In this document: positions 5,085 to 29,833 of the stretch, piece after piece
How the letters are laid out: every line of letters begins with the position of its first letter
How positions within the stretch are numbered: position 1 is the stretch's first letter
Virus record (IMG/VR): IMGVR_UViG_2737471830_000002
Source of the DNA: a virus
Lineage: Duplodnaviria; Heunggongvirae; Uroviricota; Caudoviricetes
DNA length: 33,074 nucleotides
Direction: 5' to 3' (one strand)
Position numbers and translations under genes: made by a program
Notes under the pieces: generated by a model
What the model was told of the DNA's origin: nothing
The model's database searches: none
The model's input: only the letters and a program-made list of their open reading frames with translations

Positions 5085-5738
5085 TTAAAACAGTGAACCA
5101 AGAAGGCCGACGCCAGCACCAATTGCTGTACCCCAACCAGGCATGATTGCAGTACCTGCAGCTGCACCTGCCGCAGCTCCACCCAAGGCGCTCTGAAATC
5201 CTGATGGTTTATTCGCATTAGCCGCAGATGCTGCCGCCTGCTGTTGATACAATTGGCTGACGTTGTTGGCATAGTTCTGCCCGGCGTTTGCCTGACCTGT
5301 AAGAGCGCCAAGGCCGATATTTGCCAGATTGTTGTAGTTGTTCATCTGACCTGACAGCCAGTTTTGACCGAGTGTAGGTGCGATTGCTGCTAACTGGTTT
5401 CCTGTTGCTGTAGAGCCTAATCCACCCGTTGCCTCTGCTGCTGCCAGACTCTGGTAACGCGCCTGCCCTGCAAGGTCTTTGTACTGCTGGGAGTTGTAAT
5501 ACTGGTTAAGCGCCTGACCTTGCCCCTGAAGAGAGGAAAGATTCTGCAACTGTGATACGTACTGCTGAGCGAGTGGCGTGAACGGTGCAAGGTTTTGCAT
5601 GTTCGTCTGCCACATTTCACGCTGCAGTTCGATGCCCTTTTCAGTTGCGCGTGCCTGCTCTTTTGCTCCGCTATCACCGCCACCTTTGCAGTACACAGCT
5701 TTGCTGAGGTGCTTATTGGCAATCTGGAAAATTAACAT
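5085..5738 (-). CDS. Ejection protein, P22 gp7 position
   Basis: 217-aa Gly/Ala/Gln-rich ORF; synteny. Confidence 0.6.
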   Translation of the reverse strand: MLIFQIANKHLSKAVYCKGGGDSGAKEQARATEKGIELQREMWQTNMQNLAPFTPLAQQYVSQLQNLSSLQGQGQALNQYYNSQQYKDLAGQARYQSLAAAEATGGLGSTATGNQLAAIAPTLGQNWLSGQMNNYNNLANIGLGALTGQANAGQNYANNVSQLYQQQAAASAANANKPSGFQSALGGAAAGAAAGTAIMPGWGTAIGAGVGLLGSLF

Positions 5739-6195
5739 TCTTTAGCTCCTCGTATTTTGAGCGCGGTAACTGATAAATCGTGATGCCTACAGGCTTTCCA
5801 TTGCTGGTATAAGCATCATCAAGGTGACCAACACGGGTAGCGCCAAGCAAACGGATAATTGCCCGTCCGTATTTCGTTGTGTCAGGAACCATAGTGATGC
5901 TGTTAAGGAATGGTGAGTTTTCGAGAAGCCATTTGCAGAATAATCGATGCCCTTGCAGTGCATATTCACCACGGAATCCGGGGTCGTACACCGCATGGCA
6001 TTCAACAACGCTATGCCAGAAGTGACGCACTTCATGAACTCCAGCCAGCACTAATCCTTCGTAGATGCCGAGGTATACCGCATCAGGCTTGATGTAGTAT
6101 TTATCTCCACTGTCTACGATATTTCCCGTGTTTGCCGGGTTGTTGAGGAATTCTGCAAGCTTCACCGGATTATCGATGAGCTTTATTTCCATCAC
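5713..6195 (-). CDS. P22 gp14-position protein (head completion / DNA stabilization)
   Basis: 160-aa ORF between the gp7-like and tail needle genes; synteny only. Confidence 0.5.
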
Positions 6196-7040
6196 TGCTC
6201 CGCAATGATTTTGATGGTTGTGGCAGTAAACGCCGCACCATTTGACTGAATGGTTAACGTGCTGCCATTTGTGGCAAGAAAGCCGTCTTTATCCACGCTG
6301 AAGAACGTAGCTAACAAGATGTTATCAGTTGTTGTCGCCGAGTTGCGACTGCTTACCAGTGTGTCAGGAACAGAGCCGGAAAAGGTTAGCTGCATTGACC
6401 TGTTGGCGGTTCCGCTGGGCCACGTCCCGACGATCGACAGCTTGAAGAACAAGGTTTTGTTCTCGTTGAACACAACCATCTTGTTGTTAACGGTGTCGAA
6501 GAATGGTGCCAACGTGCCGGATGACGGCGTGAGCGTTTTCAGCAGGCTAACAAGGTTGATCGGCGCTGTCGGGATGGTTACAGATACGCCAGAGTAAACA
6601 ACCTCTGACTTCTTGCGAGTAGTGGCATACTCCAGAGCATCGATGCGCGTTTCATGGTCTGAAACCTGCGATTCCAGCGACTGAACTCTGGTATCAAGCG
6701 ACGCAATATCGCTTTCATTCTTAGCGATTCGCGTTTCATGTTCCTGAAGAGTTAATTCTGCCTGGCTGATTCGCTCCTCATGATTAACAAGCGTTGCTTC
6801 CGCAGCAGAAATTCGCTGCTCATGGTCAGCGAGAATCACATCCTGCTCATCGTTCCTGACTTGTGCGTCATAAGCGCCCTGTCCGGCCTCGTTGGCCTTG
6901 TTAGCCACGTTACCAACATCAGTGCCCTGTGCGATAACGTAAAGCAGATACGACTGCGAGAAGATATTGCGTGGAAGAACTGATGTATCGATCCGCGTAG
7001 CCTGAATGATTACCGGCACATTGAGATTCGAATCCGCCAT
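6192..7040 (-). CDS. Tail needle protein (P22 gp26-like) with extended C-terminal domain
   Basis: N-terminus [43 protein letters not shown]...[16 protein letters not shown] matches P22 gp26; coiled-coil heptads follow; 282 aa. Confidence 0.8.
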
Positions 7041-8458
7041 TACTCAATCCTTATCTGAGCGCCAGACAGAGTGACAGGTGACTTCGTGATAACGCGCAAT
7101 TTGAAGCCGACATTTTTCCTGATGCGCCCGACTCGCTTCCACAAAACACGTTTGTCGTAAACGAACGGTTCATTCTGTTCAATCATCTGCTCACGTCCGT
7201 AATTTATGCCGTCAGTGGTTGCAGAGAGAAAAAGGCGGTCAGCGTACTGAGCAACACCCGTCGATGATTCCACCTCCAGATCAAAGCATCTGGCGTTATC
7301 TGCTTTGAAGAGTGGAGTAAACAGCAGGTGTTCCTGTTGAAGCCCATACTGACTGCTGATATCGAACTGCAATTTCCCGGTCACCGATTCCAGCTTATCG
7401 CCGCACGTTATCTGATTGCCTTCGTAAATGAAGTCGATAGCGCGGTACACATCGTCATACAGGCCTGTTTTCAGCACACACCATTGCGGACCATTGGCGC
7501 TTGAAGATGCGTCGTACACGAGAACATGGCGAGGAAGATGGATAACCAGCAATTCATGAGCATCAAAACGCAGCGATTCCATTACGCCATCAGCCAGTTC
7601 ATCAGCAGTGTAGGAGCGTAGTATTTTCTCAATGCTCGCGCTGGCGATTGGTGATACCTGACCGGAGCCGATGATATATACAGACGGCGCACCTGTTGCC
7701 GGATTGCTGATGAACGCATACGAATCAGCAAACGGCGTTTTGCAGTAAGTCCCGGCAATGCCTTTCTGCACCATCAGCGATGGCTGTGCGACATACAAAG
7801 CAGCACCAACTGTGGTTGCACCAGTCAGGGAGAAATATTCAATCGTCGATGAGCCAAAGCAGACGATGAAGTCTCGCCATGTTCCGATGCCGATGATGCC
7901 GTCAGGCTGTGATTCTGCCCGATATTGTGCGCTGTAGCGGTCAGGATGCGATTCGTCTTCAAGATCAGTGATAAACCATGAATCAGTACCGTCTTTTGAC
8001 CACGCATAACGCCCACGTAAGCGCGTAATGTCACGAACAGAACCTAGCTCATACTGCGTAAATCCACTGTCTGTAGGCCAGTTTGAGACGGTTTTAACCG
8101 TGCCATCATAGCGATACTCGACCAGTTGACCATTAACGCCTACCGCCTGTGATGTCCGACCATGCGCCATTGATACACGACCACTTCCGTCGACGTCACC
8201 GACTTCGCTTTCGCCTTTGTAGAGCTTGCCGCCACACACGCGATAAACAGCACTCTGCGCCATGTTGTACTCGACGCCTCGAGATATACCGTTCACATCA
8301 GAACGTTTGGCAATGCCCGGGAATGAGCGAAGATATCCGCTGCTGTTCAGGATTTCTTTGGGTGTAGCCAACATATTCACTGGCAGATAGTCGATATAGT
8401 CGGCGTTTCGAAAGTCTTTGCCGACACCTTTCATAAGCGGAAGTTGCTGAATCGGCAT
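7040..8458 (-). CDS. Tail hub protein (P22 gp10-like)
   Basis: 472-aa ORF, same length as P22 gp10, between gp26-like and gp4-like genes. Confidence 0.7.
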
Positions 8459-23431: not shown

Positions 23432-24249
23432 GCAATCCCCCTGTCTGCAAACTTCCCTTCCCGAACTCCCGTTAACGAGTCTTCCCTCAGCAGGTAATCA
23501 AAATCAGCCGTCCAGCCCGTGTCGTTGTCTCCGAAGTAAAACGGCTTGGCCTGATGCACAAACGCCCTGACATACGCTCTGAAACCGTCCACGTTTGGCG
23601 TTTTCAGTTGCGGGATGATTTTCTTCAGGCGGCGTTTGCGTTTCTCGTTGACCGCAACAGCGTGTGGCAGTCTGTCACCGACTTCGGTGTTGTAGGCGTT
23701 CAGGAAGGATTCGTAGTCGATTCGTTCTGCCTTGCGACGTTCAGGTTTAACCTGCCCATCGCCGCCCCCGTTAGGGGGTAAGGGGGTATTTGTATTTATT
23801 GTCTTTTGTATATTGTCTTTTGTGTTTAGCTGACTTGGCTTATACCCATTAGCTGACTTGGCTAATGTTTTATTAGCTGTTTTAGCTAATGTTAAGCTGT
23901 CCTGGCTAATCCACTGCGAAACCACCTTGTTCACTCCGATTTTCACGCCATCAGCAATGAGGAATTTACGCTCAATAAGCTGGCGCTTGGCAGCGCAAAC
24001 ATGAGTGTGATGAATACCTGTCATGGCTGCTATCTGCGTGTTTGTGAGTCGATCCATCGGCTTATTGAATCCGTATGTCTTGCGCATGATAGCGAGCATC
24101 ACCTTCAACTGCCGGACGGTTAAATCAGCCATCAGCAGACTGTCGGTAATCTCGTTAGCAACGCGCATGAAACCATCTTCGGTATCTGCCACGCGATGCT
24201 CCACGACCTCCAGTTGAGGCCTGTAATCAGCTAACTTAACGACGCCCAT
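23428..24249 (-). CDS. Replication initiation protein (P22 gp18 / lambda O-like)
   Basis: 273 aa; N-terminal HTH region; ori iterons embedded mid-gene; precedes the helicase with ATGA overlap. Confidence 0.75.
23770..23910. repeat. Putative replication origin: iterons plus AT-rich stretch inside the initiator gene
   Basis: Direct repeats TTAGCTGACTTGGCT x2, TTGTCTTTTGT x2, GGGGGTA x2, GGCTAAT x2 and an AT-rich run. Confidence 0.5.
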
Positions 24250-24397
24250 GTTTCACTCCTGCTTTGGCTAGTCTGTAAACACCAACAAGGCGCTCTGCGA
24301 ACGCCATGTTATTTGCTGCGGCTACCACTAATCCCTCAGGTGAATCAGGGTGTCGAATCTCTTCTTTTTCCTGGTATTTCTTACGACGTTTTGTCAT
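24227..24397 (-). CDS. Hypothetical small basic protein (56 aa) between C1 and the initiator
   Basis: ATG at 24397 with AGGAG RBS; MTKRRKKYQEKEE...; stop overlaps the gp18 start. Shorter than the ORF-track cutoff. Confidence 0.4.
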
Positions 24398-24431
24398 AAT
24401 TACTCCTGTGGATTGATCCAGTCTTTCTACA

Positions 24432-24710
24432 TCAGGCCTCGAAGAATTCGCCGTTCTTCGGGGCTTTTTCTTTTGTCAGCATTCTGGCTACTTTCTTAGC
24501 CAGTTCCGCCAACTCCTCGTCTTCAACACCCCATTCAAGAACAGCCAGAAGCATTCCCATTTTTGGGATGAAGCTGTCTTTCCATCGCGAAATTTGCGAT
24601 TCATTAATCCCTAACGCGTCGGCAACCTTTCGCTGACCACGTACAGCAATTCGATTCAGGATGTTGCTTGTAATTGCATTCGCTTTCTTGCGAGTACTTG
24701 TAAGTTCCAT
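24432..24710 (-). CDS. CII-type transcriptional activator (P22 C1-like)
   Basis: MELTSTRKKANAITSNILNRIAVRGQRKVADALGINESQISRWK...LAVLEWGV matches the lambda CII / P22 C1 family; ATG at 24710 with AAGGA RBS. Confidence 0.75.
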   Translation of the reverse strand: MELTSTRKKANAITSNILNRIAVRGQRKVADALGINESQISRWKDSFIPKMGMLLAVLEWGVEDEELAELAKKVARMLTKEKAPKNGEFFEA

Positions 24711-24724
24711 ATGTAAGTATTTCC

Positions 24725-24761
24725 TTAACAAATAAGAAGTTATGCGCATCAACTTATGCGC
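24725..24761 (-). terminator. tR1-like hairpin between nutR and the cII-like gene
   Basis: Minus-strand GCGCAT-AAGTTG-ATGCGC followed by a U-containing tail; position corresponds to lambda tR1. Confidence 0.35.
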
Positions 24762-24768
24762 GTTGTAT

Positions 24769-24812
24769 TCCCGCATTTCGGCGGGAATGAGGACCATGAC
24801 TGTTAAAGAGCG
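24769..24812 (-). promoter_or_regulatory. nutR (boxA CGCTCTTTAACA and boxB hairpin)
   Basis: Minus-strand CGCTCTTTAACA (24812..24801) then TCCCGCCGAAATGCGGGA (24786..24769); the same boxA/boxB pair recurs at nutL. Confidence 0.6.
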
Positions 24813-24818
24813 GTGTTA

Positions 24819-25013
24819 CTATTTGTTTTTCTTGTTGCTTGGGAAAGGACGAACTTCCTCTCCAATCACACTGCCATCAGGCTTTACCGTAACCATGATG
24901 TTACGGCCTGCCAGAATGGCCTTGCTGATAGCGCACTGGATTACACCAAAGTCACTGGCTGCTTTAGCCTGTCCATGGATTTTGGCGTAATCGGCAAGTG
25001 TCATTCGAATCAT
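24819..25013 (-). CDS. cro: Cro repressor (lambda-type fold)
   Basis: [62 protein letters not shown] aligns along its length with lambda Cro; ATG at 25013 after GGAGAG. Confidence 0.8.
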
Positions 25014-25042
25014 ATGCACTCTCCGTTATTAACCATGAACAA

Positions 25043-25112
25043 AGAATACTACAGGTATTCAAAGCAATCAATACTCAGGGTATTTTTAGTTTAAGTACCT
25101 TAGCTATTAGAA
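25043..25112. promoter_or_regulatory. OR operators with divergent pR and pRM
   Basis: AATACTACAGGTATT (25045..25059) and AATACTCAGGGTATT (25070..25084); minus-strand pR -35 TTGATT and -10 TATTCT overlap them; plus-strand TAGAAT (25107..25112) lies 7 nt before the cI ATG, implying a leaderless cI mRNA. Confidence 0.6.
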
Positions 25113-25119
25113 TTAAGCT

Positions 25120-25836
25120 ATGGAAAATAAAAAATCACTGACGACAGAACAGCTCGAAGACGCTAAGCGGCTTAAGGCTTTGTATGAGTCAAAAAAGAAA
25201 GAATTGGGAATAACCCAATACTCAATTGCTGATGAACTGGGTATCACCCAAGGAGCGGTAGGGCATTATCTTAATGGCAGAAACGCGCTAAACGTTGAGG
25301 TTGCATCTGGTTTTGCACGATTGTTGCAAGTCTCAATTGCTGATTTTAGCCAGTCAATTGCTGCCAAGGTTGCAGAACAGGCAGAAAGCCTTAAGAGCGA
25401 TGCCAACGTAAGGTATGCAGGGGAATACAGAGCAGGAAAGAGGTATCCGGTGTTAAGCAGTATCCAGGCTGGCTCGTGGTGTGAAGCATGCGAACCATAC
25501 ACCATTAAAGACATAGATGTTTGGCTTGAGTCTGACGCGCATATTCAAGGTAATGCGTTCTGGCTTAAAGTGGAAGGTGATTCAATGACGGCACCGGTTG
25601 GGTTAAGCATTCCAGAGGGAACATTCGTTCTTTTCGATACCGGAAGGGAGGCGATCAACGGCAGCTTGGTCATAGCAAAACTTTCTGACTCTAACGAAGC
25701 AACATTCAAGAAGCTGATAATCGACGGCGGAAATAAATACCTCAAGGGACTTAATCCTGCATGGCCTCTCGTGCCAATCAATGGAAACTGCAAGATTATA
25801 GGCGTTGCAATTGAGACAAAACTAAGGCTGGTTTGA
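25120..25836 (+). CDS. cI: CI repressor (HTH N-domain plus S24 LexA-like autopeptidase C-domain)
   Basis: 238 aa; LTTEQLEDAKRLKALYESKKKELGITQ...AFWLKVEGDSMTAP...FKKLI parallels lambda CI including the cleavage-domain motifs. Confidence 0.9.
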   Translation: MENKKSLTTEQLEDAKRLKALYESKKKELGITQYSIADELGITQGAVGHYLNGRNALNVEVASGFARLLQVSIADFSQSIAAKVAEQAESLKSDANVRYAGEYRAGKRYPVLSSIQAGSWCEACEPYTIKDIDVWLESDAHIQGNAFWLKVEGDSMTAPVGLSIPEGTFVLFDTGREAINGSLVIAKLSDSNEATFKKLIIDGGNKYLKGLNPAWPLVPINGNCKIIGVAIETKLRLV

Positions 25837-25853
25837 TCACGCAAGGGGCGATT

Positions 25854-26222
25854 ATGGTTGGAACCGCTATAGCAAGCTTTTTTGGGATGTTGGCAATCTC
25901 GACAATTTACGGCTTAGCGCATGCTTTTATTGCGAAATCTCTATCAGAAAAAATAAGCCAGGCTTGGGCGCATAGATCAGCTCGTTTCATGATTCTGGTG
26001 ATCATAGCAATACAAGGGATATCTGCATTTATCCTCTATGGTTCAAGCTTATACCTGTTGTATCAAGGCGCGACATTTACGCCTTACACCAGTGATTACG
26101 GAACGCTATACGATGGTAGTGAAGACATCTCTATGGCTTGGATCGTCTTTGGTTTATCTATGGCCGTGTCTGTTGTAGCAGACATCATTAAGGTAATTCT
26201 CGTCTTAACCTTCGCTGACTAA
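25854..26222 (+). CDS. Small integral membrane protein co-transcribed with cI; candidate superinfection-exclusion/abortive-infection factor
   Basis: 122 aa from ATG at 25854 (AAGGGG RBS), 18 nt after the cI stop; three or four predicted TM segments; no similarity recognised. Confidence 0.55.
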   Translation: MVGTAIASFFGMLAISTIYGLAHAFIAKSLSEKISQAWAHRSARFMILVIIAIQGISAFILYGSSLYLLYQGATFTPYTSDYGTLYDGSEDISMAWIVFGLSMAVSVVADIIKVILVLTFAD

Positions 26223-26309
26223 CCCATAATCCCGGCAGCAATAGCTATCGGGATCCACTTCACATATCCCGCATAAAAAAACACTGAACAAGAAGACACC
26301 GAAAAAATA

Positions 26310-26396
26310 AATATCCTTTGTATTCATTTGCTTATCATTATTTCACCAAAAATAAATACCTTGGGTATTTACACAATAGAATACCTACAGTATTCT
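26310..26396 (+). promoter_or_regulatory. OL operators and pL
   Basis: AATATCCTTTGTATT (26310..26324), AATACCTTGGGTATT (26355..26369), AATACCTACAGTATT (26380..26394); -35 TTTACA (26368..26373), 17-bp spacer, -10 TATTCT (26391..26396). Confidence 0.6.
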
Positions 26397-26441
26397 TTAG
26401 CCATCAGCAGGACGCTGGAAGCCAAACGGAACAGATTGGCA

Positions 26442-26483
26442 GGCTCTTTAACATTGATGGGATTGTCCCGCCGAAATGCGGGA
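26442..26483 (+). promoter_or_regulatory. nutL (boxA and boxB)
   Basis: GGCTCTTTAACA (26442..26453) and TCCCGCCGAAATGCGGGA (26466..26483), identical boxB to nutR, upstream of N. Confidence 0.6.
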
Positions 26484-26590
26484 ACCAAAGAGTAGTTGGC
26501 TTTGGGGTGACGTGAAGTGCAGCTGCACGACGGCAACCGGAAGATAAGCACCCGGAGCGTCACCGCCAAAGTCAATCATCGGAGGTCAAC

Positions 26591-26896
26591 ATGACAGTAG
26601 TCATTACTTATCTGGCTGACGATAACGCCAGAAATCGCCGCAGAGCACGCAGACAGGCTCAACGTGAACAGGCAATGCAAGAACAGCGATTGGCACGAAA
26701 AATTGCGCTAAAGCTCTCTGGTTGCGTCAGAGCAGATAAAGCAGCATCACTCGGAAGCCTTCGCTGCAAGAAGGCAGAAGAAGTCGAGAGTAAACAGAAC
26801 CATATTTACTACCGCAAGCCACGCAGTGAAATGGGTGTGACCTGTTCAGGCCGCCAGAAGCAACGCGGAAAATCAATTCCAGCTTATTACGATTGA
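26591..26896 (+). CDS. N: N-type transcription antiterminator
   Basis: Arginine-rich motif NARNRRRARRQAQREQ at the N-terminus; C-terminus ...KPRSEMGVTCSGRQKQRGKSIP parallels lambda N; GGAGG RBS. Confidence 0.8.
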   Translation: MTVVITYLADDNARNRRRARRQAQREQAMQEQRLARKIALKLSGCVRADKAASLGSLRCKKAEEVESKQNHIYYRKPRSEMGVTCSGRQKQRGKSIPAYYD

Positions 26897-26904
26897 GGTG
26901 AGAT

Positions 26905-27156
26905 ATGGAATTTCATGAAAGTGCGATTTGTGATTTTCGCGCTAACGCAAATTCAGTAAAACCACAGCCAATTGCAGTTCTTTTTAAAACAATGGGTGCG
27001 TGGGCTGTTTTATGCTTCGCCGCTGACGACACTGACGCAAGAATGGCAATAGGCCAAGAGATGGAGATGGACCCGACAAACGATGAATTCATAATTTATG
27101 GCGCTCCATCTAATTACTTACTTGATACCTGCAACATTTACAACAAGGCTGCCTGA
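26905..27156 (+). CDS. Hypothetical protein (83 aa) at the ral-equivalent position
   Basis: ORF directly after N with GAGGTGAG RBS; followed by an intrinsic terminator. Confidence 0.45.
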   Translation: MEFHESAICDFRANANSVKPQPIAVLFKTMGAWAVLCFAADDTDARMAIGQEMEMDPTNDEFIIYGAPSNYLLDTCNIYNKAA

Positions 27157-27175
27157 TGGTGGCCTTTATTTTTGG
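27145..27175 (+). terminator. Intrinsic terminator (tL1-like)
   Basis: AAGGCUGCC-UGAU-GGUGGCCUU stem-loop followed by UAUUUUUGG. Confidence 0.5.
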
Positions 27176-27202
27176 CATAAACAACAGAATAAACACTGCA
27201 CT

Positions 27203-27230
27203 GTGTATTCATTCCAACGAGTGAATACAC
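27203..27230. repeat. Perfect 9-bp inverted repeat GTGTATTCA-N10-TGAATACAC
   Basis: Read directly; lies between two intrinsic terminators in an intergenic region. Confidence 0.6.
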
Positions 27231-27292
27231 GGAGCAATGTCGCTCGTAACTAAACAGGAGCCGACTTGTTCTGATTATTGGAAATCTTCTTT

Positions 27293-27320
27293 GCCCTCTA
27301 ATGTGAGGGCGATTTTTTAT
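27293..27320 (+). terminator. Intrinsic terminator
   Basis: GCCCTC-TAATGT-GAGGGC followed by GATTTTTTAT. Confidence 0.6.
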
Positions 27321-27338
27321 CTGTGAGGATATGAACAG

Positions 27339-27707
27339 ATGTCAAACATCAAAAAATACATCATTGATTACGACTGGAAAGCATCAATAGAAATTGAAAT
27401 CGACCATGACGTAATGACAGAGGAAAAACTTCACCAGATTAATAATTTCTGGTCAGACTCTGAATACCGACTCAATAAACACGGCTCTGTATTAAATGCT
27501 GTATTAATCATGCTGGCACAACATGCTCTGCTTATAACAATTTCAAAAGACCTAAATGCATATGGTGTTGTTTGTGAGTTCGACTGGGATGATGGAAATG
27601 GTCAGGAAGGATGGCCTCCAATGGATGGTAGTGAAGGAATAAGAATTACCGATATCGACACATCTGGAATATTTGATTCAGATGATATGACTATCAAAGC
27701 CGCCTGA
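27339..27707 (+). CDS. Hypothetical acidic protein (122 aa), candidate anti-defence factor
   Basis: ORF with GAGGA RBS, bracketed upstream by two terminators; Asp/Glu-rich (for example DWDDGNGQEGW, ITDIDTSGIFDSDDM); no recognised family. Confidence 0.55.
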   Translation: MSNIKKYIIDYDWKASIEIEIDHDVMTEEKLHQINNFWSDSEYRLNKHGSVLNAVLIMLAQHALLITISKDLNAYGVVCEFDWDDGNGQEGWPPMDGSEGIRITDIDTSGIFDSDDMTIKAA

Positions 27708-27782
27708 GCGCGGCTTTACCGCATACCAATAATGCTTCACGAGAGGCATTTTCATTATGCAATCAAATATAAGGAGTTACCC

Positions 27783-27917
27783 ATGATGCACTTTCAGCTC
27801 GCGGGTAGCGGCGTCATGTCCGCTTTCTACCCGCACGAATCTGAATTATCACGCCGAGTTAAACAATTAATCAGAGCAGCAAAGAAACAACTGGAGGCGT
27901 TATGCGCAATGAAATAG
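27783..27917 (+). CDS. cIII: CIII-like protein (FtsH inhibitor family)
   Basis: 44 aa from ATG at 27783 (AAGGAG RBS); HFQLAGSGVMSAFYPHESELSRRVKQLIRAAKK parallels the lambda CIII central helix. Confidence 0.5.
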   Translation: MMHFQLAGSGVMSAFYPHESELSRRVKQLIRAAKKQLEALCAMK

Positions 27918-28054
27918 CCATTAATCACCAGATGCTTCGTGCTGCACAGAACAAAGCAGTAATAGCCAGATTTATTGGTGATTCAAAAATGTGGCTTGAA
28001 GCAAATAAAGCGATGAAATCAGCTATCAACCTTCCGTGGTATCGCAGGAAATGA
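27902..28054 (+). CDS. kil: Kil-like small protein
   Basis: 50 aa; start overlaps the cIII-like stop, GGAGG RBS; VIARFIGDSKMWLEANKAMKSAI resembles the lambda Kil core as recalled. Confidence 0.4.
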   Translation: MRNEIAINHQMLRAAQNKAVIARFIGDSKMWLEANKAMKSAINLPWYRRK

Positions 28055-28129
28055 GTTTTACAGATAACTGGTCAGACGAAGAATTCATTCGTCAGATGAA
28101 AGATTTAATCGGTAACGAAGGAGATATTC

Positions 28130-28300
28130 ATGTCACTTGCAACCACAGTGAAGGAGAGCAAGTTACAGAGACGCATGTACACGCAGAAAGCTCTCTGGTA
28201 TCGCCATAATGGTGACCGCGAAGGAATGCGGGTATGCCTTAATTTGTCCCGAGTCGAAGTATTAAATCAGCGTTATTTCCTTGGGCCGTGTCCATTCTGA
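28130..28300 (+). CDS. Hypothetical small protein (56 aa); alternative overlapping ORF at 28051..28209
   Basis: ATG at 28130 with AAGGAG RBS, ends 8 nt before the annealase start; which of the two overlapping frames is expressed cannot be decided from sequence alone. Confidence 0.3.
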   Translation: MSLATTVKESKLQRRMYTQKALWYRHNGDREGMRVCLNLSRVEVLNQRYFLGPCPF

Positions 28301-28308
28301 GGTGAATT

Positions 28309-29016
28309 ATGGATTTGAACAAATTCGATGAGCCATTCAGCCCTGAAGATATCGAATGGCGAATACAGCAAAGCGGTAAAACACGCGATGGCAAGGTGTG
28401 GGCTATGGTGCTGGCTTATGTCACGAACCGGGCAATCATGAAACGCCTGGACGATGTTTGCGGCAAAGCAGGATGGCGCAATGAATACCGCGATATTCCC
28501 AACAACGGCGGAGTTGAATGCGGCATATCAATCAAGATTGATTCCGAATGGGTAACCAAATGGGATGCTGCTGAAAACACGCAGGTAGAAGCCGTCAAAG
28601 GTGGTCGTTCCGGTGCAATGAAGCGCGCTGCCGTTCAGTGGGGAATCGGTCGGTATCTGTATAACCTTGAGGAAGGTTTCGCACAAACATCTCTCGATAA
28701 AAAGCAGGGGTGGCACAGGGCAAAACTGAAGGATGGAACAGGATTTTACTGGCTCCCTCCATCGCTGCCGGGATGGGCAATCCCAGCATCAGATAACAAA
28801 CCATCACCAGAAAATACCAACCAGAAATCTCCATCGGTTGACTGCGAACAAATCCTGAAAGACTTCAGCGATTATGCGTCAACAGAAACTGACAAGAAAA
28901 AACTCATCGAGCGTTATCAGCGTGACTGGCAATTAATGGCTGGCAACGAGGAGGCGCAGGCTAAATGCGTTCAGGTAATGAACATCAGAGTTAACGAACT
29001 AAAACAGGCGGCATAA
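28309..29016 (+). CDS. Rad52-family single-strand annealing protein (Sak-like recombinase)
   Basis: 235 aa; GGRSGAMKRAAVQWGIGRYLYNL resembles the Rad52 N-domain signature; immediately precedes ssb. Confidence 0.6.
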   Translation: MDLNKFDEPFSPEDIEWRIQQSGKTRDGKVWAMVLAYVTNRAIMKRLDDVCGKAGWRNEYRDIPNNGGVECGISIKIDSEWVTKWDAAENTQVEAVKGGRSGAMKRAAVQWGIGRYLYNLEEGFAQTSLDKKQGWHRAKLKDGTGFYWLPPSLPGWAIPASDNKPSPENTNQKSPSVDCEQILKDFSDYASTETDKKKLIERYQRDWQLMAGNEEAQAKCVQVMNIRVNELKQAA

Positions 29017-29523
29017 ATGGCAAGCAGAGGCGTAAATAAGGTGATTATCCTTGGTCGGGTAGGACAAGACCCGGAAGTTCGATACTCACCATCAGGAACA
29101 GCGTTCGCTAACCTGACAATAGCCACGTCAGAACAATGGCGAGATAAAAATACTGGCGAGCAAAAGGAATTGACTGAATGGCATCGTGTTGCTGTATCCG
29201 GGAAACTGGCTGAGGTCGTGGGGCAGTATGTGAAAAAAGGTGATCAGATTTATTTCGAGGGAATGCTGAGAACCAGAAAGTGGAAAGACCAGTCAGGGCA
29301 AGACCGTTACACAACCGAGGTTCATGTCGGAATTAATGGCGTGATGCAAATGCTTGGCGGCATTGGCGACAGCAAACAACAAGCAGCCAGCAAGCAATCA
29401 CAGAAGCCACAGCAGCAATCATCACCAGCACAACACAACGAACCTCCGATGGATTTTGACGACGATATACCCTTTGCACCAGTAACTCTCCCCTTCCCTC
29501 GTCACGCTATTCACGCAATTTAA
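29017..29523 (+). CDS. ssb: Single-stranded DNA-binding protein with C-terminal extension
   Basis: OB-fold N-terminus [44 protein letters not shown]...; acidic tip [11 protein letters not shown] is followed by [15 protein letters not shown] before the stop. Confidence 0.9.
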
Positions 29524-29536
29524 TCAGGAGAAAATC

Positions 29537-29833
29537 ATGCCAGCGCCTCTGTATGGTGCGGATGACCCGCGCCGCTGTTCCGGCAATTCCATATCGGAGG
29601 TGCTGGATAAATTCAGAAAAAACTACGACCTGATAATGTCGCTACCGCAGGAAACGAAAGAGGAAAAGGAATTTCGCCATTGTATATGGCTTGCAGAGAA
29701 AGAAGAACGCGAGCGAATTTACCAGACATCAATCCGACCATTCCGCAAAGCCACATATACCCACTTCCCTGAATATATCGACCCGCGCCTGCGTAATTAC
29801 CGCTCACGCTATGGCGCTATCAGTAATGACTGA
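29537..29833 (+). CDS. Hypothetical protein (98 aa)
   Basis: ORF with GGAG RBS following ssb. Confidence 0.45.

What the first reader, a model, noticed from the sequence alone, without database searches (positions are those of the whole stretch)
27339..27707. Acidic 122-aa early protein at the ral/sieB/gene-17 position: candidate anti-defence factor
The ORF is strongly Asp/Glu-rich, has its own RBS, lies behind two terminators in the N-dependent early-left operon, and occupies the slot where lambdoid phages keep anti-restriction and exclusion-bypass genes. Its acidity is compatible with a DNA-mimic type inhibitor. No known family recognised.
Basis: inference. Interest (0 to 1): 0.55.

Follow-up and report, generated by a model that had tools for sequence, protein, structure and literature searches.

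The report
Phage lambda ea10 gene, function unknown
The acidic 122-aa ORF is the known but uncharacterised early gene ea10 of phage lambda (Pfam DUF2528), so the ORF is real but not new, and the anti-defence idea is still an untested guess.

Summary
The ORF at 27339-27707 (+) is real. It encodes 122 aa with pI 4.3 and net charge -14. A GAGG ribosome-binding site lies 10 nt upstream, and two terminator-like hairpins sit further upstream in a pL/N-type early-left operon.

It does belong to a known family. It is the ortholog of phage lambda Ea10 (GenBank label 'ssb'), with 97.5% aa identity. It matches Pfam DUF2528 (157 bits; cut-off 22) and PHROG 646. At least 1459 of 5426 complete E. coli genomes carry it.

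It does not occupy the variable ral/sieB slot. An unrelated 83-aa ORF fills the ral position here. ea10 is a conserved block joined to the PreS/LPR1 sRNA and the tL2a terminator.

No function is established in the literature I could search. It is non-essential, abundantly made, and predicted to be a homodimer.

New here:
- A confident AF2 model (pLDDT 94) with bb-aaaa-b topology and no convincing structural neighbour. It is not an OB fold.
- Acidity conserved across the family.
- An invariant EGWPxMDGSxG loop.
- Most family diversity lies in early regions of Mu-like prophages, often within 0.6 kb of Gam-type nuclease inhibitors.

My best guess is a stoichiometric acidic inhibitor of a host DNA-processing or defence protein. 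This is low confidence.

The parts
27339..27707 (+). ea10 ortholog CDS (122 aa plus stop); Pfam DUF2528 / PHROG 646
   Evidence: ORF. Pfam DUF2528 at 157.4 bits, E=1.8e-46. PHROG 646 at E=2.9e-70. 97.5% aa identity to lambda ea10 and 98.4% to phage 21/mEpX2. pI 4.31, net -14. AF2 model pLDDT 94.
27325..27328 (+). Shine-Dalgarno GAGG, 10 nt upstream of the ATG
   Evidence: Sequence. The RBS is annotated at the same relative position in phage 21 record OL657228.
27291..27322 (+). Intrinsic terminator hairpin plus T-tract. Equivalent to lambda tL2a, which is also the 3' end of the PreS/LPR1 sRNA.
   Evidence: Terminator scan. Near-identity to lambda. tL2a/LPR1 described in bioRxiv 10.1101/2024.10.31.621285.
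27230..27322 (+). Homolog of the lambda Hfq-dependent sRNA PreS (LPR1). The 5' end is approximate, inferred from the reported ~88-nt length.
   Evidence: About 98% identical to the lambda ral-ea10 intergenic region. Folds into a 5' stem plus terminator hairpin, z=-4.7 against shuffles. sRNA described.
27145..27176 (+). First terminator-like hairpin plus T-tract. It overlaps the stop codon of the upstream 83-aa ORF and the same sequence forms the 3' end of ral in lambda.
27731..27757 (+). Terminator-like hairpin between ea10 and cIII, also conserved in lambda
26905..27156 (+). 83-aa acidic ORF (PHROG 2471, unknown function) at the ral position. This, not ea10, is the variable-slot gene.
   Evidence: pI 4.24. 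Its last ~14 nt equal the ral 3' end.
26591..26896 (+). N-like antiterminator gene
   Evidence: PHROG 271 at E=2.6e-35. Weak Pfam N_peptide hit.
26353..26396 (+). Operator-like palindromes and a pL-like promoter (TTTACA-17-TATTCT)
   Evidence: Consensus-level evidence only.
26466..26483 (+). boxB-like hairpin (candidate nutL)
   Evidence: Inverted repeat TCCCGC/GCGGGA with a 6-nt loop. Assignment as nutL is inferred.
27783..27917 (+). cIII (likely true start at the ATG at 27783, behind an AAGGAG site)
   Evidence: Pfam cIII at E=4.6e-30, matching residues 19-55 of the longer ORF. Sequence.
27902..28054 (+). kil
   Evidence: Pfam Lambda_Kil at E=1.7e-20. PHROG 2055.

Best explanation
SHOWN. The ORF is the ortholog of bacteriophage lambda gene ea10 and belongs to Pfam DUF2528. 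It lies in the early-left (pL) operon. It sits downstream of N, of a variable 'ral-slot' gene, and of the tL2a terminator that also ends the PreS sRNA. It sits upstream of cIII and kil. The predicted product is a compact, cytoplasmic, single-domain protein with bb-aaaa-b topology. It is strongly acidic, and that acidity is conserved across the family.

FROM THE LITERATURE. Ea10 is made abundantly early in infection. It is dispensable for lytic growth on laboratory E. coli. It is predicted to form a homodimer, which has not been confirmed. No function has been shown.

INFERRED (my commitment). Ea10 does not bind ssDNA, despite the old 'ssb' label. I propose it acts stoichiometrically as a protein-binding inhibitor or modulator of a host DNA-processing enzyme, such as a nuclease, helicase or defence or repair factor. 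The proposed binding surface combines the conserved acidic surface with the invariant E-G-W-P-x-M-D-G-S-x-G loop and the E-I-D-H strand end. On this view it belongs functionally with the neighbouring Gam/Abc-type 'neutralise host nucleases' genes of temperate phages.

Confidence. Identity as ea10 is about 0.99. The stated mechanism is about 0.35.
For: Identity:
- Pfam DUF2528 at 157 bits against a cut-off of 22, and a full-length PHROG 646 match.
- 97.5% aa identity to lambda ea10. About 98% DNA identity from the ral 3' end through ea10, with the same synteny ral-slot/tL2/ea10/cIII/kil.

Expression and dispensability:
- Abundantly produced early protein once mistaken for Kil (PMC3961180).
- Non-essential in a CRISPRi screen (PMC10695390). 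A viable IS10 insertion exists (PMC2327257).
- Predicted homodimer, expressed and purified (bioRxiv 10.64898/2026.05.24.727406).

Mechanism:
- Acidity is conserved. 97.5% of 202 homologs have pI<5 and mean net charge is -13, down to 25% identity.
- 13 alignment columns are at least 60% D/E. A discrete invariant motif comprises E90, G91, W92, D96, G97, S98 and G100, together with K5, Y7, D22, N35 and R44.
- The confident model (pLDDT 94, pTM 0.85) is not an OB fold. There is no sequence similarity to the phage's own bona fide SSB.
- The family sits in early 'host-takeover' regions of lambdoid, Mu-like and other prophages.
- In 11 of 24 distinct divergent loci it lies within 0.6 kb of a Gam-type or host-nuclease-inhibitor gene on the same strand. 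Three unrelated inhibitor families are involved.
Against: - No experiment links Ea10 to any target.
- No structural or sequence similarity to any known inhibitor, DNA mimic or anti-defence protein.
- The linkage to Gam could simply reflect that both are early genes in short operons. In a region of about 12 genes, lying within two genes of each other is not rare.
- The conserved loop residues may be purely structural.
- The family is absent from conjugative plasmids and, at this sensitivity, from virulent phages. Generic anti-restriction genes are common in both. This fits a role tied to temperate-phage development as well as it fits anti-defence.
- The gene is 95-99% conserved among about 200 lambdoid phages, so it shows no arms-race diversification.
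Confidence: 0.35

Rival explanations
1. Ea10 is a DNA-mimic anti-restriction or anti-defence protein of the Ocr/ArdA type. It would block type I R-M, BREX or similar DNA-binding defences by imitating the phosphate backbone.
For: pI 4.3 and net -14. Acidity is conserved family-wide while most acidic positions vary in identity. Predicted homodimer with pI 3.8. Early expression next to the ral slot.
Confidence: 0.12
2. Ea10 is a developmental or physiological regulator specific to temperate phages. It would modulate host or phage replication, the cell cycle or the lysis-lysogeny decision rather than immunity. When overproduced in the absence of Cro it would be harmful to the phage (the 'Tro phenotype').
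For: Table S5 of bioRxiv 10.64898/2026.05.24.727406 lists its function as 'Unknown (Tro phenotype)'. The family was found only in temperate elements: lambdoid, Mu-like and P4-like or other prophages. In 67 of 73 lambdoid loci ea10 is joined to PreS, an sRNA that boosts dnaN and phage replication. It sits beside cIII and kil, both modulators of host physiology. Accessory genes of the pL operon transiently block host replication initiation and division (PMC2147009).
Against: No gene-level evidence assigns any of these phenotypes to ea10 in the papers I could read. Linkage to PreS may only reflect a shared mosaic block.
Confidence: 0.25
3. Ea10 binds or destroys a small molecule. It would act as a sponge or small enzyme for an immune signalling nucleotide, in the way Tad1, Tad2, Acb2 and Acb4 do.
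For: It is a small, abundant, probably oligomeric early protein. Its invariant polar residues (K5, Y7, D22, N35, R44, E90, D96, S98) look more like a defined site than a diffuse surface.
Against: No structural similarity to known sponges. Acb4 appeared only as a meaningless Foldseek hit (E=3, TM 0.15). H23 is conserved in only 71% of members.
Confidence: 0.08
4. The historical annotation is right: Ea10 is a single-stranded-DNA-binding protein ('ssb').
For: GenBank J02459 and many derived records label it 'ssb' or 'ssDNA binding protein'.
Against: No match to the Pfam SSB families. No similarity to the window's own OB-fold SSB at 29017-29523. The model has three strands and four helices, not an OB barrel. 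Only 9 of 122 residues are basic and only 2 basic positions are well conserved. No primary data were found in the searchable literature. Caveat: some genuine phage SSBs are acidic overall (my own knowledge).
Confidence: 0.05
5. Ea10 is a soluble SPFH/Band-7-like domain. It would interfere with the HflKC-FtsH machinery that controls CII/CIII stability, acting together with the adjacent cIII.
Confidence: 0.04

Closest known systems
Bacteriophage lambda Ea10 (gene ea10, old label 'ssb'; UniProt P68658; Pfam PF10800 DUF2528; PHROG 646)
   Same: Same length (122 aa) and 97.5% aa identity. Same start codon and RBS position. Same flanking tL2 hairpins, PreS region and downstream hairpin. Same place in the pL operon, before cIII and kil.
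   Different: There are three amino-acid differences from lambda. The upstream neighbour is an 83-aa ORF instead of ral/orf28/sieB. The downstream recombination module is Rad52/Erf-type plus SSB plus Abc2 instead of Gam-Bet-Exo.
DUF2528 genes of Mu-like transposable prophages (e.g. Burkholderia phage vB_E430, Stenotrophomonas phage Bhz63, and prophages in Salmonella, Citrobacter, Serratia and Oceanobacter)
   Same: Same domain, size, acidity and conserved EGWPxMDGSxG loop. They are also early accessory genes transcribed with host-takeover genes.
   Different: Only 31-53% identical. They lie between the MuB-like ATPase and GemA/Mor, not in an N-antiterminated operon, and have no detectable cIII, kil or PreS neighbours.
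DNA-mimic anti-restriction proteins (T7 Ocr, ArdA)
   Same: Small, acidic, early-expressed and probably dimeric.
   Different: No sequence or fold similarity. Charge density is lower. Conservation is focused on a loop motif. No experimental anti-restriction activity is reported.
Host-nuclease inhibitors Gam (lambda), Gam (Mu) and Abc2 (P22)
   Same: Dispensable early accessory genes of temperate phages. They are frequent close neighbours of DUF2528.
   Different: No homology to any of them. The proposed functional kinship rests on gene neighbourhood only.
OB-fold SSB proteins (Pfam PF00436)
   Same: Only the historical name 'ssb' is shared.
   Different: No HMM match, no OB fold and very few basic residues. 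The window encodes a genuine SSB elsewhere, at 29017-29523.
SPFH/Band-7 domains (HflK/C, stomatin, flotillin)
   Different: Scores are below the level of confident homology. There is no Foldseek or Pfam support and no membrane anchor or coiled coil.

Membership tests
Lambda Ea10 / Pfam DUF2528 (PF10800) | HMM score above Pfam's gathering threshold over the whole domain | tested here: met
   157.4 bits against a cut-off of 22. Residues 16-119 match profile positions 1-104 of 104. PHROG 646 matches 1-122 of 122.
Lambda Ea10 / Pfam DUF2528 (PF10800) | Orthology to lambda ea10: near-identity and conserved position between the tL2 terminators and cIII-kil in the pL operon | tested here: met
   97.5% aa identity to J02459 ea10. 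DNA identity is about 98% including the flanks.
Lambda Ea10 / Pfam DUF2528 (PF10800) | Family signature residues (EIDH strand end; EGWPxMDGSxG loop) | tested here: met
   All are present in the window protein (E20-H23 and E90-G100). They are conserved in 196 aligned homologs.
DNA-mimic anti-restriction proteins (Ocr/ArdA type) | Strong net negative charge | tested here: met
   Net -14, pI 4.31 and 18.9% D+E. The trait is conserved across the family.
DNA-mimic anti-restriction proteins (Ocr/ArdA type) | Sequence or fold relationship to a known mimic family | tested here: not met
DNA-mimic anti-restriction proteins (Ocr/ArdA type) | Surface carboxylates arranged like B-DNA phosphates; inhibition of R-M or other DNA-binding enzymes | not testable with these tools
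This needs structure inspection and biochemistry.
OB-fold single-stranded DNA-binding proteins | Match to SSB HMMs (PF00436/PF22657) | tested here: not met
   DUF2528 was the only Pfam hit at E<=0.01. BLASTP against the window's own SSB gave E=0.38.
OB-fold single-stranded DNA-binding proteins | Five-stranded OB beta-barrel | tested here: not met
   The AF2 model has three strands and four helices, at pLDDT 94.
OB-fold single-stranded DNA-binding proteins | Binds ssDNA | not testable with these tools
   This needs EMSA with purified protein.
SPFH / Band-7 domain | Band_7 HMM match; N-terminal membrane anchor and C-terminal coiled coil | tested here: not met
   No Pfam Band_7 hit. The 122-aa protein has no hydrophobic N-terminus or coiled-coil extension.
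   The Pfam and PHROG scans return only DUF2528 / PHROG 646. In lambda, ral and ea10 are separate adjacent genes.

The most novel reading that the evidence does not exclude
DUF2528/Ea10 may define a new fold of abundant, acidic, dimeric early protein. Temperate phages of two very different architectures (lambda-like and Mu-like) would deploy it alongside Gam-type proteins to neutralise a conserved host nuclease or immune effector. The mechanism could be nucleic-acid mimicry or sequestration of a signalling ligand. That would make one of the last uncharacterised lambda early genes a widespread counter-defence factor.
Probability: 0.25. Interest if true: 0.6.

Novelty: already known. Interest (0 to 1): 0.3.

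Why it matters
The gene is not new. It is lambda ea10, present in about a quarter of complete E. coli genomes and in Shiga-toxin phages. Its function has stayed open since the 1970s, and the widely copied 'ssDNA-binding protein' annotation is not supported by any homology or fold evidence found here.

If Ea10 proves to be a counter-defence or host-nuclease inhibitor, three things follow. It would add a new fold to the anti-defence repertoire. It would explain the family's conservation across lambda-like and Mu-like temperate phages. It would also matter for the biology of Stx prophages.

For the genome scan, the practical lesson is that this finding should be filed as a known gene of unknown function, not as a novel element.

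Tried and rejected
- NCBIfam and PADLOC scans gave no hits.
- PDB sequence searches with the single protein and with the family profile gave only chance-level hits.
- Foldseek against PDB gave nothing below E=2. Foldseek against BFVD found only one family member.
- The AFDB libraries were unavailable, so no search of predicted structures beyond viral proteins was possible.
- Rfam scan of 24000-29000 gave no real hit. PreS is evidently not among the families matched.
- I checked for fusion or extension partners. The few longer family members carry no recognisable extra domain.
- The plasmid search returned only lambda or lambdoid genomes filed as plasmids, with no conjugative leading-region copies.
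- Literature: Sergueev et al. 2002, Blasche et al. 2013 and Casjens & Hendrix 2015 are not held. A search for 'Tro phenotype' found nothing relevant.
- The supplements of two phage accessory-gene screens contain neither the name nor the sequence motif.
- The lambda two-hybrid map reports one interaction for Ea10. I could not retrieve the partner.
- A shared PPMD tetrapeptide with the SSB C-terminal tail was noticed and dismissed. In Ea10 it sits in a structured internal loop, and BLASTP shows no similarity.
- Model coordinates are not exposed to scripts, so surface-charge and pocket analysis could not be done.

Full report
**1. The observation**

The ORF at 27339-27707 (+) is present as described. 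It has an ATG start and encodes 122 aa. It contains 23 Asp+Glu against 9 Lys+Arg, giving net charge -14 and pI 4.31. The charge is concentrated in residues 81-120.

A GAGG Shine-Dalgarno lies at 27325-27328, 10 nt before the ATG. The curated phage 21 record marks its RBS at the same position.

Two terminator-like hairpins with T-tracts precede the ORF, at 27145-27166 and 27291-27312. A third follows it at 27731-27750. The count alone is not above chance: 3 found against 1.7 +/- 1.1 in shuffles.

The operon context is a lambdoid early-left operon on the + strand:
- A cI-type repressor (HTH plus S24 peptidase) at 25120-25836, with Cro, CII and an O-like replication gene divergent on the - strand.
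- Operator-like palindromes and a pL-like promoter at 26353-26396.
- A boxB-like hairpin at 26466-26483.
- An N-like gene at 26591-26896.
- Downstream, cIII, kil, a Rad52/Erf-type annealase, an OB-fold SSB and P22-type Abc2.

Among 36 distinct near-identical alleles, 16 codons carry synonymous variants and 14 carry non-synonymous variants. A random expectation would be 20% synonymous. No allele has an internal stop, so the ORF is under purifying selection.

**2. What it is**

The protein matches Pfam DUF2528 (PF10800) at 157 bits against a cut-off of 22, E=1.8e-46. It matches PHROG 646 end to end.

tblastn against 50,697 phage records finds it in 215 records. It is 97.5% identical to the gene that GenBank J02459 annotates as 'ea10 (ssb;122)' in phage lambda, and 98.4% identical to the copies in phage 21 and mEpX2.

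A three-way DNA alignment shows about 98% identity to lambda and phage 21. This runs from the last ~14 nt of the upstream ORF (the same nucleotides that end ral in lambda) to the hairpin downstream of ea10, and it includes both upstream hairpins.

The gene is therefore lambda ea10 in its canonical place. RefSeq calls it 'DUF2528 family protein'. The segment covers at least 80% of the query in 1459 of 5426 complete E. coli genomes.

**3. The 'slot' claim**

In lambda the order is N - (sieB, orf28, ral) - tL2 - ea10 - cIII - kil - gam. In this window the ral position is taken by an unrelated 83-aa acidic ORF at 26905-27156 (PHROG 2471, unknown function). VT2-Sakai, HK633 and about 50 other phages also carry it.

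I examined 80 near-identical lambdoid loci from IMG/VR:
- ea10 stays joined to the 180-bp upstream non-coding segment in 67 of 73 loci with enough upstream sequence.
- The position further upstream holds ral in 29 loci, the 83-aa ORF in 5, and neither in the remaining ~39.
- Downstream the recombination module is Red-type in 38 loci and Rad52-type in 24.

ea10 is thus a conserved anchor beside a variable slot. It is not the slot gene itself.

**4. The upstream non-coding segment**

A 2024 preprint describes an Hfq-dependent sRNA of about 88 nt, called LPR1 and renamed PreS. It lies between ral and ea10 in lambda, and its 3' end is the tL2a terminator. PreS raises translation of host dnaN and promotes phage replication (bioRxiv 10.1101/2024.10.31.621285; review PMC12197685).

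The window's 27230-27322 is nearly identical to the lambda sequence. It folds into a 5' stem plus terminator hairpin with z=-4.7 against shuffles.

**5. What is known about Ea10**

In the literature I could search, no function is established.
- ea10 knock-down is tolerated (PMC10695390). An IS10 insertion in ea10 gives viable phage (PMC2327257).
- The protein is abundant early, and was once mistaken for Kil (PMC3961180).
- The PreS authors state that its role 'is not fully understood'.
- A 2026 preprint lists lambda Ea10 (P68658, their Px2b) as 'Unknown (Tro phenotype)'. It predicts a homodimer with pI 3.82. The authors expressed and purified the protein from E. coli, but it did not migrate on blue-native gels, so the dimer was not confirmed (bioRxiv 10.64898/2026.05.24.727406).
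- The label 'ssb' or 'ssDNA-binding protein' is copied through many records. I found no primary data behind it.
- The name and the sequence motif are absent from the supplements of two phage accessory-gene screens.

**6. Structure**

An AlphaFold2 model built on a 36-sequence family alignment is confident: mean pLDDT 94, pTM 0.85. Its topology is b(4-11)-b(15-22)-a(28-37)-a(41-48)-a(51-70)-a(74-80)-long ordered loop(82-100)-b(101-107). This is not an OB fold.

Structure searches gave the following:
- Foldseek against the PDB found nothing below E=2.
- Foldseek against BFVD found only one family member.

I treat the SPFH resemblance as topological only. Four points count against a real link: no second method supports it; there is no Band_7 HMM hit; the protein has no membrane anchor; and most family members are not next to a cIII gene. 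The AFDB libraries were unavailable. Model coordinates could not be read by scripts, so I could not map charges or pockets.

**7. The family**

A profile search of 1.84 billion representatives finds 581 clusters at E<=1e-3. Nearly all are single-domain proteins of about 120 aa. The few longer members carry no recognisable extra domain.

Acidity is a family trait. Of 202 homologs, 97.5% have pI<5, and the mean net charge is -13.

In 196 aligned homologs spanning 25-100% identity:
- The best-conserved positions are K5, Y7, D22, N35, F37, W38, R44, L56, L59, F81, E90, G91, W92, D96, G97, S98, G100 and I101.
- These form an E-I-D-(H) strand end and an E-G-W-P-x-M-D-G-S-x-G loop.
- Thirteen columns are at least 60% Asp/Glu.

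This pattern combines general acidity with one discrete site. It fits a specific binding or active site better than a purely periodic DNA-like charge array. The loop residues could also be structural.

**8. Genomic context of distant members**

Of 24 distinct divergent loci:
- 13 are early regions of Mu-like transposable prophages. There the gene lies between the MuA/MuB-like genes and GemA/Mor, on the same strand.
- Five are lambdoid.
- The rest sit in other prophage-like elements next to P4-type primases, a C5-methylase or an HNH gene.

In 11 of the 24 loci a Gam-type or 'host nuclease inhibitor' gene lies within 0.6 kb on the same strand. Three unrelated families are involved: Mu Gam, lambda Gam and PHROG 1518. 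In Oceanobacter and in Stenotrophomonas phage Bhz63 the two genes directly abut. In lambda itself gam lies about 0.3 kb downstream. In this window the analogous gene is Abc2, 1.8 kb downstream.

This linkage is suggestive but weak, because early regions are short.

The family was not found on conjugative plasmids. All 19 plasmid-collection hits are lambda or lambdoid genomes. At tblastn sensitivity it was also not found in virulent phages.

**9. Mechanism**

Identity as ea10 is certain. Its function is not.

I commit, at about 0.35, to this reading. Ea10 is an abundant, probably dimeric, acidic protein that acts stoichiometrically by binding a host DNA-processing or defence protein. It belongs functionally with the Gam/Abc-type genes around it, and it does not bind ssDNA.

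The rivals are:
- A temperate-phage developmental regulator, linked to the Tro phenotype and to PreS (about 0.25).
- A small-molecule sponge or enzyme (about 0.08).
- A true ssDNA-binding protein (about 0.05).
- An SPFH-like modulator of HflKC/FtsH (about 0.04).

Each is testable with a clean deletion that preserves PreS, pull-down/MS, EMSA and ligand-binding assays.

**10. Verdict**

The finding is an already known gene of unknown function, so its interest as a discovery is low to moderate. The useful additions from this work are:
- The 'ssb' annotation lacks any support from homology or fold.
- The fold has no convincing structural neighbour.
- Acidity and a loop motif are conserved family-wide.
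- Most of the family's diversity lies in Mu-like prophages near Gam-type inhibitors.

Noticed in passing
window 27230-27322 (+): The non-coding stretch just upstream of the ORF is about 98% identical to the lambda region that encodes the Hfq-dependent sRNA PreS (LPR1). PreS ends at terminator tL2a and up-regulates host dnaN. Some E. coli genomes carry only this ~160-bp segment without ea10 (hits H79-H81).
   Followed up: partly
window 26905-27156 (+): An 83-aa acidic ORF (pI 4.24, PHROG 2471, unknown function) occupies the ral position. Its last ~14 nt are identical to the 3' end of lambda ral, marking a mosaic junction exactly at the gene end. It is shared at >=99% identity by 49 phage records, including VT2-Sakai and HK633. 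This gene, not ea10, is the true variable-slot gene and a better anti-restriction candidate.
   Followed up: partly
window 25833-26222 (+): A 129-aa hydrophobic ORF (PHROG 6534, unknown; no Pfam, NCBIfam or PADLOC hit) overlaps the end of cI. It sits where lambda has rexA/rexB, so it is a candidate prophage-expressed exclusion or defence gene.
   Followed up: no
window 28036-28300 and 29537-29833 (+): Two small overlapping ORFs of 57 and 56 aa (PHROGs 2123 and 1723, labelled 'recombinase') lie between kil and the Rad52/Erf-type annealase. A P22-type Abc2 anti-RecBCD gene (Pfam PF11043, E=1e-62) follows the SSB. The phage therefore already carries a known host-nuclease modulator in place of lambda Gam.
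   Followed up: partly
window 29017-29523 (+): The OB-fold SSB contains the canonical acidic tip [11 protein letters not shown] but continues for 15 more residues ([15 protein letters not shown]). The motif is therefore not C-terminal, as it is in E. coli SSB. This could be a real variant or a read-through.
   Followed up: no
loci L012-L025, L029, L033, L036 (genome contigs); hits H88-H90 (plasmids): Copies 96-100% identical to lambda ea10 occur in assemblies of unrelated taxa such as Shewanella, Pseudomonas, Neobacillus, Paenibacillus, Kitasatospora, Enterococcus and Bradyrhizobium. They are often on low-coverage contigs or on 48.5-kb contigs labelled as plasmids. This is almost certainly lambda DNA contamination or spike-in in public records.
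   Followed up: no
loci L005, L009, L040, L043, L046 (Mu-like prophages of Salmonella, Serratia, Citrobacter, Symbiopectobacterium): There is a recurring gene order. In L005 and L009 it reads MuB-like ATPase - DUF2528 - a ~95-aa PHROG 2041 protein with overlapping stop and start codons - a ~79-aa ORF - Mu Gam. L040, L043 and L046 show the same MuB - DUF2528 - Mu Gam spacing. The tightly coupled PHROG 2041 protein could be a functional partner of DUF2528.
   Followed up: partly
locus L044 (Gallionellaceae MAG) 5548-8153: In this locus the DUF2528 ORF is immediately followed by a C-5 cytosine DNA methylase, with stop and start codons overlapping. A phage methylase can serve as self-protection against restriction, which would fit an anti-restriction neighbourhood.
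   Followed up: no
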